A DNA stretch of 64,000 nt from NCBI RefSeq assembly GCF_054482595.1, contig NZ_CM137008.1. The stretch is one strand, 5' to 3'. Below are positions 3,001 through 6,000 of this stretch, piece after piece. Position numbers: made by a program. The stretch's first letter is position 1; every line of letters begins with the position of its first letter.

Positions 3001-6000
3001 GATGCTCAATCGACTGGCTGGCGTTATCTTTGATAATGCTGTTGCCACCAATGGCAACGACCACAAGTTCTTTCATCTTGTTATGTCCGCTACAGAGGGT
3101 GATGGGGTTATGACCAACGCCAGACTGCCTGATGCGCTACGCTTATCAGGCCTACAATTCTCGTGCCACTCGTAGGCCGGATAAGGCGTTCACGCCACAT
3201 CCGGCAATGGTGACAAATGCCTGATGCGCTACGCTTATCAGGCCTACAATTCTTGCGCCATTCGTAGGCCGGATAAGGCGTTCACGCCGCATCCGGCAAT
3301 GGTGACAAATGCCTGATGCGCTACGCTTATCAGGCCTACAAATTCTTGCGCCACTTGTAGGCCGGATAAGGCGTTCACGCCGCATCCGGCAATGGTGACA
3401 AATGCCTGATGCGCTACGCTTATCAGGCCTACAGATTCTTGCGCCACTTGTAGGCCGGATAAGGCGTTCACGCCGCATCCGGCATGAACATGTAGGTCAG
3501 ACGCCGTAACGTTCGCACCAGCCAAGAATGGCTTTCTCGAAGCAGGCGAATGGCGGATGCACAATGCCCGCGCCAATCATGCCGACGCCCGCATCTTTAT
3601 GGGCGATGGCGGTGTTGATCACCGGCAGAATGCCGCTGCTACCCACGCGGGTGATGTCGATTGCCGACGGCACGCCCATAAAACCGAGCAGCGGAATGGT
3701 GACGTTGGGGTTTTCGCCAAGGGTGATTTCGCGCATCTGACGGGAGAAATCGATAGCCTCTTCCACCGTGCCGCCCACCAGCGCAACGATTGCAGGCGCG
3801 GTCGCCATGGCAAATCCGCCAATACCGTAGGTTTCGGTGATGGCGCTGTCGCCGATATCCAGCCCCGAATCTTCCGGCTTATAACCAGCAAACATCGGGC
3901 CGATGACCTGCTGCGCTGGGCCGGTAAACCACTGCCCCGGCAGGCCGCTGACCCGCAGGCCGAACTCGACGCCGTTACGCGCCATGGTGGTAACGACGGT
4001 GCTGTATTCGATGCCGTGCGCCGCATCCATCGCCGCTTTACACATCGCCATCCACGTCGGGCCGGAGAAGTAATCGCTACTGGCAACAAACTCAAACACT
4101 TCGCGCTGTTGCGCGACGGAATAGCCCGCCTGGATAATCCCCGGCGTCAGCGCCTGAATCAGCAGCGTCGTCCCGGCGTTATTGCGGTTATGGCACTCAT
4201 CGCCCATATGCAGCGCCTGCGCCAGCATTAAGCGCAGATCGATTTCGCCGATAATTTTCATCGCGTCGCGCAGTATTGGTCCCTGCACATCACGCATCCA
4301 GTTCAGGCGGTCAATCACGCTCTGGTCGTTAGCGCCCATACGCAAAATCTTCGCCATCTGCTCGCTCATGTTGGTATAAGCGATGTTGCCGTAGGTTTTG
4401 TTTTTTACGATGTGCATAAACATCGAGGCCGAGGTAACACCCGCCATCGATCCCACGCAGTCGTGCTCGTGACACGGCGAGAAGGTGATCTCCCCGGAAG
4501 CCGCCAGTTCAGCCGCCTCGTCGAGATCTTTCGCCAGTCCTTCGAACACCAGCGCTCCGGTGACCGCGCCTTTCATCGCGCCGCACATTTTTTCCCAGGT
4601 GATCGGCGGCCCGGCGTGAAGAATGGTTTTCGGCGTCATGCCCGGCACCACGTTAATCGCCTGCTCAAAACCAATCAGCACCGGATGCGACTGGATAATG
4701 CGCTCCAGCGCCTGCTGGTTAGCGGCGGCGATTTTGTCTGCCAGCGGCGAATCGGCAATGTTGTCCAGCGCCTGCACCACCTGCATATTGCCCTGCCCCG
4801 GCGGCGTCCAGTCGAGTTGAGTCACTTCTACATGCTGCTTTTTCAGGTCATCGCTAAACATGGCGATGCCGACGTTAATAACGTTCAATGGTTGGCTAAA
4901 CAGTGACTGGCTCATCAGGCTTCCTCCCCTTTGCAGATAAATTCACGCGCCAGCAATCCGGTATTGGTGCTGCTGCTCGCCAGAATCACTCCGGCATCAA
5001 GCAGCATCTGGCTTTGTTGTTCTAACGATGGCGTATCAAGATCGGTACCCAGCACATAGGCGAGAATGATCAACTCGCGTCCTTCGGCAGCGGCGATCGC
5101 TTTCGCTTCTTTGATCGCCTCGATGGTGGAGCCGACCGGATCTTCATGCGATCCAAATCCGAGCACAAAATCCATCACGATCACCGCCACTTCTGGATCG
5201 CGCGCCTCTTCGATCAAGCGACTGATGCGGTTGGTGGGGTCAATCATTGGATGCGGCTTGCCGTTGGTGAAGTCGTCATCGCCAAAGTCGAGGAAGGTGT
5301 GTTTGATGCTGCGATTGATATCTTTCAGGCGGAATTCAGGATCGGGCTGGATGTTGCTGTAGACATCGCCGTGTTTTTCCATCACCGCGAACATGGTTTC
5401 GTCACACAGCGTACCGCCGCAGAACAGGCCACGAATGTATTTCTGCTGGGGTTGCAGACGCGCACGCACATCCGCAATCAACGGCTGGTTAAGCGTATGC
5501 AGGTCGAGATTTTCCTGTTTCACGCCGGAGAGCATCACCGCTTTTAGCGCCGCTTCTTTGCTGCCGCGAGCAAACTGTAGCCCCTGCTCGTCAACCGGCG
5601 TTTCGCCACGACCGAGGAAGCAGACCACCACCGGCTTGCGGCAGGCGCGGGCGCGTTCCAGCACTTTACGGGCCACCGCAGGCGCGGGAGGTTTTGAAAT
5701 CAGCGCGATAATTTCAGTTTGCGGATCGTTTTCCAGCATCCCGATGGCGTCGAGCATCATCAGGCCGCCGATTTTCTCGCTCAGGTCGCGCCCGCCGGTG
5801 CCAATCAGTTGTGAAACGCCGCCACCAAATTCATGAATGCGGACGCTCAGCTCCTGGCTGCCGGTGCCGGATGCGCCAACAATACCGATGTTGCCGCGAT
5901 GCACGGCGTTACCAAAACAGAGCGCCGCGCCGTTGATAATCGCCGTGCCACAGTCTGGCCCCATCATCAGCAGCCCTTTTTCGTGGGCCAGTTGCTTGAG

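What the first reader, a model, noticed from the sequence alone, without database searches (positions are those of the whole stretch)
3127..3485. Tandem REP/BIME array inside the yah operon
Four roughly 92-bp units of REP palindromes separate yahI from yahG. The six-frame ORFs at 3152-3478 and 3244-3576 are translations of these repeats (visible as the recurring CGVNALSGL peptide). REP arrays can stabilise upstream mRNA and attenuate downstream genes, so the array may set differential expression within the cluster. Copy number commonly varies between strains.
Basis: partly seen in the sequence, partly recalled or inferred. Interest (0 to 1): 0.3.

Follow-up and report, generated by a model that had tools for sequence, protein, structure and literature searches.

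The report
Known REP repeat array (REP23) in yah operon
This is an ordinary, already catalogued E. coli repeat: eight small palindromes (REP23, once mis-annotated as the gene yahH) lie between yahG and yahI, vary from none to five double units among strains, and probably tune how much of the operon's message survives on each side.

Summary
Window 3126-3484 holds 3.9 tandem copies of a 92-93 bp unit. Each unit is one 29-nt Z-type and one 34-nt Y-type REP palindrome in opposite orientation. These eight REPs are the only ones in the 64 kb window.

The window is E. coli. The array lies between yahG (3497-4915, minus) and yahI (2126-3076, minus). It is the element catalogued as REP23 in K-12. The ORFs inside it are the discredited gene yahH, which different sources have placed in two different reading frames.

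By the published definitions the array is an "atypical BIME". It has the BIME-2 tandem layout and linkers homologous to those of REP325, but a shorter Z palindrome.

Copy number varies among complete E. coli genomes:
- 13% have no REP at the site (655 of 5,045).
- About 45% of sampled genomes have one unit, 4% two and 5% three.
- About 24% have four (K-12 and this window) and 7% five (O157:H7).

All 18 short-gap yahG-yahI orthologues from other genera also carry a G+C-rich hairpin just after yahG, from unrelated sequence families.

The regulatory role (stabilising upstream mRNA, attenuating yahIJ) is inferred from published REP325 experiments and was not tested here. The feature is already known and of low interest.

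The parts
3126..3484 (.). Whole REP array (REP23-equivalent): 4 tandem units of 92, 92, 93 and 81 bp. Each unit is Z palindrome, 16-17-nt linker, Y palindrome, 11-nt linker.
   Evidence: TRF; the repeat finder; unit dissection
3127..3155 (-). Z-type REP no. 1 (29 nt). The GTAG-first orientation is on the minus strand. As RNA the hairpin is -11.5 kcal/mol on the operon transcript.
3172..3205 (+). Y-type REP no. 1 (34 nt, one mismatch to the pattern). The GTAG-first orientation is on the plus strand. Hairpin -21.2 kcal/mol on the operon transcript.
3219..3247 (-). Z-type REP no. 2
3264..3297 (+). Y-type REP no. 2
3311..3339 (-). Z-type REP no. 3
3357..3390 (+). Y-type REP no. 3
3404..3432 (-). 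Z-type REP no. 4
3450..3483 (+). Y-type REP no. 4. It is the first hairpin met by the operon transcript and begins 13 nt after the yahG stop codon.
3497..4915 (-). yahG (DUF1116 / Pfam AllG), the upstream gene. Its stop codon TGA is at 3499-3497.
2126..3076 (-). yahI (carbamate kinase family), the downstream gene. Its ATG is at 3076-3074.
3077..3125 (-). Unique leader between the array and the yahI start. Its last ~40 nt (CATAACCCCATCACCCTCTGTAGCGGACATAACAAG) are conserved in all short-gap orthologues. REPs always lie upstream of it.
   Evidence: alignment A2
3152..3478 (-). REP-derived ORF of 108 aa in the MRRERLIRPT... frame, which is the frame of Neuhaus's X002/yahH. It changes frame after a 92-bp unit. 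Not a conserved gene.
3244..3576 (-). REP-derived ORF of 110 aa in the CGVNALSGL frame, which is the frame of RefSeq 'protein YahH'. PGAP calls 3244-3471 'hypothetical protein' in the identical strain XH990. It overlaps the yahG 3' end out of frame.
3175..3429 (+). Three matches to Rfam naRNA4 (RF02564) above the gathering score, at 3175-3244, 3267-3336 and 3360-3429. They lie on the strand antisense to the yah operon.

Best explanation
The feature is REP23, a non-coding bacterial interspersed mosaic element (BIME). It consists of four tandem pairs of Y and short-Z REP palindromes sitting in the only sizeable gap of the yahDEFG-yahIJ gene string.

**Shown**
- The identity, architecture and repeat-family membership of the array.
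- Its position 13 nt after the yahG stop codon and 50 nt before the yahI start codon.
- Strong hairpin potential on the transcribed strand.
- No promoter-like or intrinsic-terminator-like site between the two genes.
- A strain polymorphism of 0-5 units.

**Inferred mechanism**
- yahI and yahJ are reached only by transcripts that read through the array.
- In that transcript the eight hairpins act as a barrier to 3'-to-5' exonucleases, so the upstream yahDEFG segment outlives the yahIJ segment.
- The hairpins also act as a partial attenuator of read-through. Together these make upstream expression exceed downstream expression.
- The number of units would set the strength of these effects. It changes by recombination or slippage between the 92-93 bp direct repeats, and possibly through the REP-associated transposase.
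For: **Identity**
- Exact Y and Z palindromes with the GTAG motif, in alternating orientation.
- The AA/GC internal mismatch and the hairpins expected of E. coli REPs (against the description).
- A two-unit query matches a median of at least 36 places per genome in 5,425 of 5,426 E. coli genomes.
- The unit is homologous along its whole length, both linkers included, to the REP325 unit, and matches the Rfam model built from REP325.
- The literature names this locus REP23/yahH.

**Structure**
- The minus-strand RNA 3070-3505 folds at -197.6 kcal/mol against -152.9 +/- 6.0 for shuffles, z = -7.5.

**Operon context**
- All the genes are on the minus strand with overlaps or gaps of at most 39 nt, except this 420-nt gap.
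- No promoter-like or terminator-like site lies on the minus strand between yahG and yahI.

**Experimental precedent**
- Deleting REP325 raised the downstream gene about 8-10-fold and lowered the upstream gene.
- Genome-wide, REP-containing tandem gene pairs show raised upstream/downstream expression ratios.
- REPs fewer than 16 nt from a stop codon reduce translation (Liang 2015, as cited).

**Comparative evidence**
- All 18 short-gap yahG-yahI orthologues in six other genera carry a G+C-rich hairpin 0-23 nt after the yahG stop, from unrelated sequence families. 16 of 17 non-E. coli junctions fold better than shuffles by z < -2.
- One Y REP shows a compensatory double change, GGCG/CGCC to GACA/TGTC.

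**Polymorphism**
- Alleles differ by whole units.
Against: - No expression data across the junction were available here.
- Part of the hairpin recurrence follows from REP ancestry in Escherichia and Pseudocitrobacter, and REPs and other palindromes colonise many intergenic gaps, so the comparative pattern could reflect insertion opportunity and not selection.
- 13% of E. coli genomes have no REP at the site and about 45% have a single unit, so a large array is dispensable.
- REP23 is inverted relative to transcription compared with REP325, so the precedent may not transfer quantitatively.
- REP23 was not found in the stored, truncated part of the table of REPs near Rho-dependent termination regions, whereas REP24-26 were.
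- The transcript has no C-rich, G-poor stretch typical of Rho loading sites; C/G is 0.76-1.05.
- Harris et al. report no general lengthening of mRNA half-life by terminal REPs.
- The yah genes upstream of the array are weakly expressed in K-12 under laboratory conditions, with DESeq2 base means of 33-151.
Confidence: 0.6

Rival explanations
1. The array is a selfish or neutral repeat that settled in a gap. It expands and contracts by recombination and has no selected effect on yah expression.
For: - Presence/absence and copy-number polymorphism: 0 units in 655 of 5,045 genomes, and 1 unit in about 45% of sampled rows.
- In most relatives the gap holds a 516-aa gene, so it may be a deletion scar open to colonisation.
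- The yah genes are weakly expressed in K-12.
- REPs are thought to be mobilised by TnpA-REP.
- One strain shows a deletion with an end inside a REP that destroys yahI.
Against: - Every short-gap orthologue, and the REP-less E. coli allele too, keeps some stable hairpin close to the yahG stop.
- REP stems are nearly invariant while the linkers vary, and one compensatory stem change was seen.
- The homologous REP325 has measurable effects on both of its neighbours.
Confidence: 0.3
2. The array works mainly at the DNA or nucleoid level. It could be a strong DNA gyrase or HU binding site, or the source of a naRNA4-like nucleoid-associated RNA.
For: - Three units score 76-78 bits against Rfam naRNA4, whose gathering score is 59.5.
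- BIME-2 arrays are enriched for gyrase cleavage, mainly in Y REPs.
- naRNA4/HU-mediated condensation was proposed for REP325.
Against: - The high-scoring strand is antisense to the operon, and no significant promoter drives it: one weak match was found, with 0.8 expected by chance.
- The 2026 re-examination found no measurable nucleoid compaction by REP325/naRNA4, no stable HU ternary complex and no REP-REP contacts.
- No yahG, yahH or yahI entry was found in the held gyrase-site supplements.
- The Rfam match follows from REP homology alone.
Confidence: 0.07
3. The array encodes a real small protein, YahH, as annotated by RefSeq in many strains and as argued from ribosome footprints in EHEC.
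For: - Ribosome-footprint coverage over the 465-nt ORF X002/yahH in O157:H7, RPKM 56.
- RefSeq names a 'protein YahH' in K-12 and O157.
- The 93-bp unit is open in two minus-strand frames.
Against: - The two 'YahH' proteins are in different reading frames: MRRERLIRPT versus GLISVAHQAF/CGVNALSGL.
- A 1-nt linker indel (92 versus 93 bp) breaks or switches the frame differently in each strain.
- About 58% of genomes have 0-1 unit and no such ORF.
- The candidate starts (ATG 3478, GTG 3471) lie inside the Y hairpin (sequence).
- No protein family matches above cut-off.
- Reads from a family with more than 36 copies per genome, and from nuclease-resistant hairpins, can mimic footprints (inference).
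Confidence: 0.03

Closest known systems
REP23 / 'yahH' of E. coli K-12 and O157:H7 (EcoCyc REP numbering; Neuhaus et al. 2016, PMC4765031; y-ome review PMC11551758)
   Same: It is the same locus, between yahG and yahI, with the same Y and Z palindromes and linkers. K-12 also has 4 units (361 bp against 360 bp here). O157:H7 has 5, as published.
   Different: It is an allele. The unit lengths here are 92/92/93/81, against 92/93/93/81 in K-12, and a few linker substitutions differ. The REP-derived ORFs therefore differ: a 75-aa 'hypothetical protein' in the identical strain XH990 against a 98-aa 'YahH' in K-12.
REP325 (yjdM-yjdN) and its RNA naRNA4, Rfam RF02564
   Same: Both are tandem Y-Z pairs inside an operon, between two co-oriented genes. 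The unit is homologous over both palindromes and both linkers. Three units here exceed the Rfam gathering score. REP325 has been shown experimentally to stabilise the upstream gene's mRNA and attenuate the downstream gene.
   Different: - The Z palindrome here is 7 nt shorter (29 versus 36-37 nt), so the unit is 70 nt within the model's 77.
- There are 4 units here against 6.
- The array is inverted relative to the direction of operon transcription.
- No experiment exists for this array.
BIME-2 / atypical BIME classes of Bachellier, Gilson and Hofnung (as summarised in PMC3333891 and PMC1187871)
   Same: Alternating REP/iREP orientation, short linkers, tandem copies, and length polymorphism between strains at a fixed locus.
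   Different: BIME-2 is defined as y + z2. By the lengths (z1 29 nt, z2 37 nt) and by REP325 being called Y+Z2, the Z here is z1. A y + z1 element in the tandem, short-linker layout falls in the 'atypical BIME' class, meaning a chimera of BIME-1 and BIME-2.
REP-mediated translational down-regulation (Liang, Rudd and Deutscher 2015, cited in PMC12306157)
   Same: The first REP hairpin begins 13 nt after the yahG stop codon, which is inside the <16-nt rule.
   Different: This is untested for yahG. The ST131-type and E. albertii junctions have 23 nt, outside the rule.

Membership tests
E. coli REP (palindromic unit) | Conserved GTAG tetranucleotide directly 5' of the palindrome | tested here: met
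   All 8 palindromes carry GTAG/CTAC. Definition.
E. coli REP (palindromic unit) | Imperfect palindrome of 20-50 nt forming a stem-loop with the conserved AA/GC mismatch in the stem | tested here: met
   Y is 34 nt and Z is 29 nt. Folds show a 7-bp outer stem, a 2x2 internal loop (AA opposite GC) and an inner stem: Y -19.5 to -21.3 and Z -11.5 to -13.2 kcal/mol. Definition.
E. coli REP (palindromic unit) | Extragenic location | tested here: met
   The array lies between the yahG stop (3497) and the yahI start (3076). It is overlapped only by ORFs made of the repeat itself.
E. coli REP (palindromic unit) | High-copy, dispersed family in the genome | tested here: met
   A two-unit query finds a median of at least 36 places per genome (capped) in 5,425 of 5,426 genomes.
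E. coli REP (palindromic unit) | Recognised and cleaved by TnpA-REP (RAYT) | not testable with these tools
   This needs biochemistry. Only the sequence determinants (GTAG and the bulge) are present.
BIME-2 | Tandem REP/iREP pairs with short linkers, in multiple copies | tested here: met
   4 pairs, with linkers of 16-17 nt (head-to-head) and 11 nt (tail-to-tail) that are homologous to those of REP325.
BIME-2 | Composed of y and z2 palindromes | tested here: not met
   Z is the 29-nt type, which is z1. The Z of REP325, called Z2, is 36-37 nt. By the definitions the array is therefore an atypical BIME.
BIME-2 | Length polymorphism between strains at a conserved locus | tested here: met
   Alleles of 0, 1, 2, 3, 4 and 5 units.
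BIME-2 | Preferential DNA gyrase binding and cleavage | not testable with these tools
   No yahG, yahH or yahI entry in the held supplements of the gyrase Topo-seq paper. That is not a test.
BIME-1 | Single y-z1 pair separated by a long, conserved L linker, often with an IHF site | tested here: not met
   The linkers are 11 and 16-17 nt and the element is tandemly repeated. Definition.
Atypical BIME | Other combinations of y, z1, z2 and linkers, usually in multiple copies | tested here: met
   y + z1 with BIME-2-type linkers, in 4 copies. Definition.
naRNA4 (Rfam RF02564) | Covariance-model score at or above the gathering score | tested here: met
   76-78 bits against 59.5 for three units on the plus strand. 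The operon-sense strand scores 52-54 bits, below threshold.
naRNA4 (Rfam RF02564) | Expressed as an RNA of that strand that binds HU | not testable with these tools
   The matching strand is antisense to the operon and no significant promoter drives it. The proposed HU/nucleoid role is itself disputed.
Protein-coding gene yahH | One reading frame conserved among strains | tested here: not met
   Two different frames have been called YahH. Frames are switched by 92/93-bp unit variants. There is no such ORF in alleles of 0-1 unit.
Protein-coding gene yahH | Membership of a curated protein family | tested here: not met
   Only sub-threshold chance matches in Pfam and NCBIfam.
Intrinsic (Rho-independent) terminator | G+C-rich hairpin followed by a U run on the transcribed strand | tested here: not met
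   No minus-strand site in 2600-4000. The hairpins are followed by mixed sequence.
Rho-dependent attenuator (as reported for BIMEs and REP325) | Untranslated, C-rich and G-poor loading region, and bicyclomycin-sensitive 3' ends | tested here: inconclusive
   C/G is 0.76-1.05 along the 420-nt gap, so it is not C-rich. REP23 is absent from the stored part of a table of REP-proximal Rho-dependent regions. There is no direct test.

The most novel reading that the evidence does not exclude
The yahG-yahI junction may be under selection to carry a stable RNA hairpin right after yahG. Different genera would meet this need with unrelated palindromes. In E. coli the REP copy number (0-5 units, and 13 or 23 nt from the stop codon) would act as a heritable, strain-specific rheostat for the ratio of YahDEFG (oxamate-carbamoyltransferase-like) to YahIJ (carbamate kinase and amidohydrolase). 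The array would have colonised the slot left by loss of a conserved 516-aa permease-like gene that most relatives keep between yahG and yahI.
Probability: 0.2. Interest if true: 0.4.

Novelty: already known. Interest (0 to 1): 0.15.

Why it matters
On its own it matters little. REP/BIME arrays are textbook E. coli repeats, and this one is already named (REP23) and discussed in the literature.

It has three practical uses:
- **Annotation hygiene.** RefSeq still calls "protein YahH" or "hypothetical protein" inside the array, in frames that differ between strains.
- **A natural allelic series.** Alleles of 0, 1, 2, 3, 4 and 5 units, with two stop-codon spacings, all sit at one locus. That series could test quantitatively the recently proposed dual terminator/stabiliser model for REPs.
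- **A clue about the cluster.** The E. coli chromosomal yah cluster lacks a permease-like gene that is present in most relatives.

Tried and rejected
- **Expression data.** I looked for expression on both sides of the array in the supplement of Harris et al. 2026. Only the upstream genes were in the stored part (yahD 104, yahE 33, yahF 151, yahG 147 base mean). yahI and yahJ were cut off, so no ratio could be made.
- **Rho-dependent termination.** REP23 is absent from the stored part of that paper's table of REPs near Rho-dependent regions, while REP24-26 are present. The file is truncated, so this is only weak negative evidence.
- **Gyrase sites.** No yahG, yahH or yahI entry exists in the held Topo-seq supplements.
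- **Liang et al. 2015 (PMC4427526).** The paper is not held. I took the <16-nt rule from its citation in PMC12306157.
- **Supplements of Ton-Hoang 2012**, which list BIME loci, are not held.
- **Promoter and terminator scan.** Nothing on the transcribed strand. One weak plus-strand promoter-like site is at chance level.
- **Rho loading site by composition.** No C-rich region.
- **Protein-family searches of the REP ORFs.** Only sub-threshold noise.
- **BIME-2 label.** I first called the short Z palindrome 'Z2' from memory. Two sources in hand make the 29-nt type z1, so I dropped the canonical BIME-2 label.
- **The 516-aa neighbour protein.** It has no Pfam, NCBIfam or PDB sequence match. An AlphaFold model from a shallow 13-sequence alignment had pLDDT 40.6, so I ran no fold search.
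Full report
**1. Observation**

The sequence at 3126-3484 is a tandem array with period 93, 3.9 copies and 96% matches (Tandem Repeats Finder). Start-to-start spacings are 92, 93 and 93 bp.

Each unit, read on the plus strand, has four parts:
- a 29-nt palindrome, TGCCTGATGCGCTACGCTTATCAGGCCTAC;
- a 16-17-nt linker;
- a 34-nt palindrome in the opposite orientation, GTAGGCCGGATAAGGCGTTCACGCCGCATCCGGCA;
- an 11-nt linker, ATGGTGACAAA.

Each palindrome occurs four times, with at most one mismatch, where shuffles of the window give 0.00. The shared core CTTATCMGGCCTAC occurs only at these eight places in the 64 kb, with 0.44 expected.

Their translations are periodic and contain the recurring CGVNALSGL peptide.

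**2. Context**

The first 12 kb of the window are 100% identical to several E. coli chromosomes, such as XH990 and O157:H16 Santai. In those records the genes are, all on the minus strand:
- yahJ 734-2116
- yahI 2126-3076
- yahG 3497-4915
- fdrA/yahF 4915-6462
- yahE 6452-7315
- yahD 7355-7960

Neighbouring genes overlap or lie at most 39 nt apart. The exception is the 420-nt gap between yahG and yahI, which the array fills.

YahG matches Pfam AllG (oxamate carbamoyltransferase subunit) and YahI matches the amino-acid/carbamate kinase family. The scan found no promoter-like or intrinsic-terminator-like site on the minus strand between the two genes. As far as such a scan can tell, yahI and yahJ depend on transcripts that cross the array.

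**3. What it is**

The palindromes have the defining features of E. coli REPs as described by Corneloup et al.:
- the GTAG tetranucleotide;
- an imperfect stem with the AA/GC mismatch;
- hairpins of -19.5 to -21.3 kcal/mol (Y) and -11.5 to -13.2 kcal/mol (Z).

Rfam's only REP-derived model, naRNA4 (RF02564, built from REP325), matches three units at 76-78 bits against a gathering score of 59.5. A direct alignment shows that this unit and the REP325 unit are homologous through both palindromes and both linkers. They differ mainly by a 7-nt shorter Z palindrome here.

*Published names.* The literature already names the element:
- The y-ome review lists "yahH (filled with REP23 sites)".
- Neuhaus et al. 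2016 describe the O157:H7 version as five repeat blocks of REP23 within the rejected gene yahH.
- The REP numbering agrees with REP24 lying at 346.8 kb in K-12.

*Classification.* BIME-2 is defined as tandem y + z2 pairs, BIME-1 as a single y-z1 pair with a long linker, and "atypical" as other combinations, usually multi-copy. Two sources make the 29-nt palindrome z1:
- Corneloup et al. give z1 as 29 nt and z2 as 37 nt.
- Qian et al. call the 36-37-nt palindrome of REP325 Z2.

The array is therefore an atypical BIME with the BIME-2 layout but z1 in place of z2. I had first labelled it BIME-2 from memory and dropped that label.

**4. The ORFs**

The 93-bp unit is open in two minus-strand frames.
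- RefSeq's "protein YahH" in K-12 and O157 uses the GLISVAHQAF...CGVNALSGL frame.
- Neuhaus's X002/yahH is the 465-nt ORF in the other frame, MRRERLIRPT.

A 1-nt indel in the head-to-head linker makes units of 92 or 93 bp. It breaks or switches these frames differently in each strain. In this window the first frame is cut to 75 aa, which PGAP calls "hypothetical protein" in XH990. The second frame runs into the first after the third unit.

Further points against a gene:
- Alleles with 0 or 1 unit, together about 58% of genomes, have no such ORF.
- The candidate start codons lie inside the Y hairpin.
- No protein family matches above cut-off.

The published ribosome-footprint signal is the only evidence for translation. 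It may be confounded by multi-copy mapping and by nuclease-resistant hairpins; that is my inference.

**5. Copy number among strains**

A query made only of the 400-bp flanks matched 5,048 of 5,426 genomes. The distance between the flanks fell into discrete classes. I fetched representatives and dissected them.

| Allele | Size | Example strains |
|---|---|---|
| No REP | a unique 57-nt insert with its own small hairpin | IAI39, SMS-3-5, CE10 |
| One unit | 88 bp (AR437, SE11, O111); 98 bp, with a different right junction (ST131) | as listed |
| Two units | 192 bp | 2020N21-246 |
| Three units | 275 bp | DLL7555, O145 |
| Four units | 366-367 bp | this window, K-12 |
| Five units | 460 bp | O157:H7 |

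The REP-less insert is single-copy and present in exactly 655 genomes, 13% of the 5,045 genomes that hold the locus.

Among 82 rank-spaced rows from two searches the proportions were roughly as follows:

| Units | Share of sampled rows |
|---|---|
| 0 | 13% |
| 1 | 45% |
| 2 | 4% |
| 3 | 5% |
| 4 | 24% |
| 5 | 7% |

These are rough figures from a clonally biased collection.

Alleles differ by whole units, and some units are identical between lineages (window unit 3 = O157 unit 4; K-12 unit 3 = O157 unit 3). Variation concentrates in the linker while the stems are nearly invariant. One Y REP carries a compensatory double change, GGCG/CGCC to GACA/TGTC.

One strain (P276M) has a deletion running from inside yahI into the first Z REP, with both flanking genes annotated as pseudogenes.

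**6. Other species**

A scan of one genome per species with YahI returned 80 loci. In 18 of them yahG and yahI are adjacent, as in E. coli. These come from E. albertii, E. whittamii, Pseudocitrobacter, Citrobacter amalonaticus, Kluyvera, Raoultella, Klebsiella and one Enterobacter.

All 18 carry a G+C-rich hairpin starting 0-23 nt after the yahG stop codon, but the sequences belong to different families:
- E. coli-type Y/Z REPs in Escherichia and Pseudocitrobacter;
- GTAGCCCGGG-type REP pairs in Kluyvera and Klebsiella;
- GGGTGAGGG and CCCTCTCCC palindromes in other Kluyvera and Klebsiella;
- a hairpin followed by a T-rich run in Citrobacter.

Sixteen of the 17 non-E. coli junctions fold better than dinucleotide shuffles by z < -2.

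The roughly 40 nt immediately before the yahI start codon are conserved in all of them and in every E. coli allele. The palindromes always lie upstream of that leader.

In 55 other loci, and on ~190-kb E. coli plasmids, a very hydrophobic 516-aa protein is encoded exactly between the yahG and yahI orthologues. The loci include the Citrobacter freundii group, Enterobacter, Buttiauxella, Serratia, Pantoea and Providencia. The protein is 84-98% identical across genera and has no Pfam, NCBIfam or PDB sequence match. Only 142 of 5,426 E. coli genomes have it. The E. coli REP array thus sits where most relatives have a gene. The wide distribution of the long form favours loss in the short-gap lineage, but I did not resolve the direction.

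**7. Mechanism**

*Shown:* eight stable hairpins on the transcribed strand. The 436-nt minus-strand RNA folds at -197.6 kcal/mol, z = -7.5. The first hairpin begins 13 nt after the yahG UGA. No independent promoter-like signal precedes yahI.

*Published precedent:*
- Deleting the homologous array REP325 raised the downstream gene about 8-10-fold and lowered the upstream transcript, with partial Rho dependence.
- Genome-wide, REP-containing tandem gene pairs have raised upstream/downstream expression ratios.
- REPs fewer than 16 nt from a stop codon reduce translation of the upstream gene (Liang et al. 2015).

*Inferred:* in the yahDEFG-REP-yahIJ transcript the array protects the upstream segment from 3' exonucleases and reduces the amount of intact yahIJ message. 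The strength would depend on unit number.

*Points against:*
- This array is inverted relative to transcription compared with REP325.
- The gap has no C-rich stretch.
- REP23 was not seen in the truncated list of REPs near Rho-dependent regions.
- Terminal REPs do not generally lengthen half-lives.
- Many strains manage with one unit or none.

I put identity at about 0.98 and the regulatory mechanism at about 0.5. The main rival is a neutral repeat with no selected effect (0.3).

**8. Verdict**

The finding is real and correctly interpreted, but it is a known element of a known kind. What this analysis adds is descriptive:
- the allele spectrum, including a REP-less allele;
- the atypical-BIME classification;
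- the two conflicting "YahH" frames;
- the recurrence of unrelated hairpins at the same junction in other genera;
- the permease-like gene that occupies this slot in most relatives.

Interest is low (0.15). The most novel reading not excluded is selection for a junction hairpin, with REP copy number acting as an expression rheostat. I give it a probability of about 0.2.

Noticed in passing
L025 926-2476 (+); L092 4378-5928 (-); homologues in L026-L091: A 516-aa, very hydrophobic protein (GRAVY 0.80) is encoded exactly between the yahG and yahI orthologues in 55 loci from many Enterobacterales genera and on ~190-kb E. coli plasmids. It is 84-98% identical across genera and has no Pfam, NCBIfam or PDB sequence match; a few RefSeq records call it 'xanthine permease'. 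The E. coli chromosome lacks it, and the REP array sits in its slot. Only 142 of 5,426 E. coli genomes carry it. An AlphaFold model from a shallow alignment was unusable (pLDDT 40.6).
   Followed up: partly
window 3077-3118 (minus strand); alignment A2: About 40 nt directly upstream of the yahI start codon (CATAACCCCATCACCCTCTGTAGCGGACATAACAAG) are conserved across all short-gap orthologues from six genera and in all E. coli alleles. They include a possible mini-hairpin, TCTG-NNN-CGGA, over the weak GGA ribosome-binding motif. No Rfam match.
   Followed up: partly
L009 384-440 (IAI39); same site as window 3126-3496: The REP-less allele carries a unique 57-nt sequence with its own 10-bp hairpin (CCTTCTCCC-TTTT-GGGGAGAAGG on the transcript). 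It is single-copy and present in exactly 655 of 5,426 genomes, including IAI39, SMS-3-5 and CE10. E. albertii and E. whittamii do have REPs here, so this allele may be a secondary replacement.
   Followed up: yes
L010 ~515-525 (strain P276M): A deletion joins the interior of yahI directly to the middle of the first Z REP (…caatgtcgtaa|caggcctacag…). yahI is truncated and yahG is annotated with an internal stop. This is an example of a rearrangement ending in a REP.
   Followed up: partly
L014 2185-2500 (E. albertii): The intergenic region contains a duplication whose unit includes the last ~50 nt of yahG together with the Y-Z REP pair. The repeat unit that was amplified there therefore differs from the one in E. 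coli.
   Followed up: no
L002 383-847 versus 520-840; L003 427-723; window 3244-3471: 'yahH' has been assigned to two different reading frames on the same strand. The published X002/yahH is in the MRRERLIRPT frame and RefSeq 'protein YahH' is in the CGVNALSGL frame. PGAP's call changes from strain to strain (YahH, hypothetical protein, or nothing).
   Followed up: yes
window 734-7960 (minus strand): YahG matches Pfam AllG (oxamate carbamoyltransferase subunit), yahF is annotated fdrA, and YahI is a carbamate kinase. The yah cluster therefore looks like a paralogue of the anaerobic allantoin/oxamate branch (fdrA-ylbE-ylbF-arcC type) with an added amidohydrolase, YahJ.
   Followed up: partly
L004 (DLL7555), third Y REP of the array: The inner stem of one Y REP has changed on both sides, GGCG...CGCC to GACA...TGTC, keeping the hairpin. 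The adjacent two Z REPs share two private substitutions, which suggests a recent local duplication of that unit.
   Followed up: partly
window 60008-60206 (minus strand): Rfam family IS009 (RF02111) matches at 183.6 bits, with a gathering score of 117. It is unrelated to the finding.
   Followed up: no
window 3010-3037 (plus strand): A single promoter-like site (TCGACT-16-GATAAT, 9 of 12) inside the 5' end of yahI points towards the array on the strand that matches naRNA4. It is at chance level (1 found, 0.8 expected).
   Followed up: no
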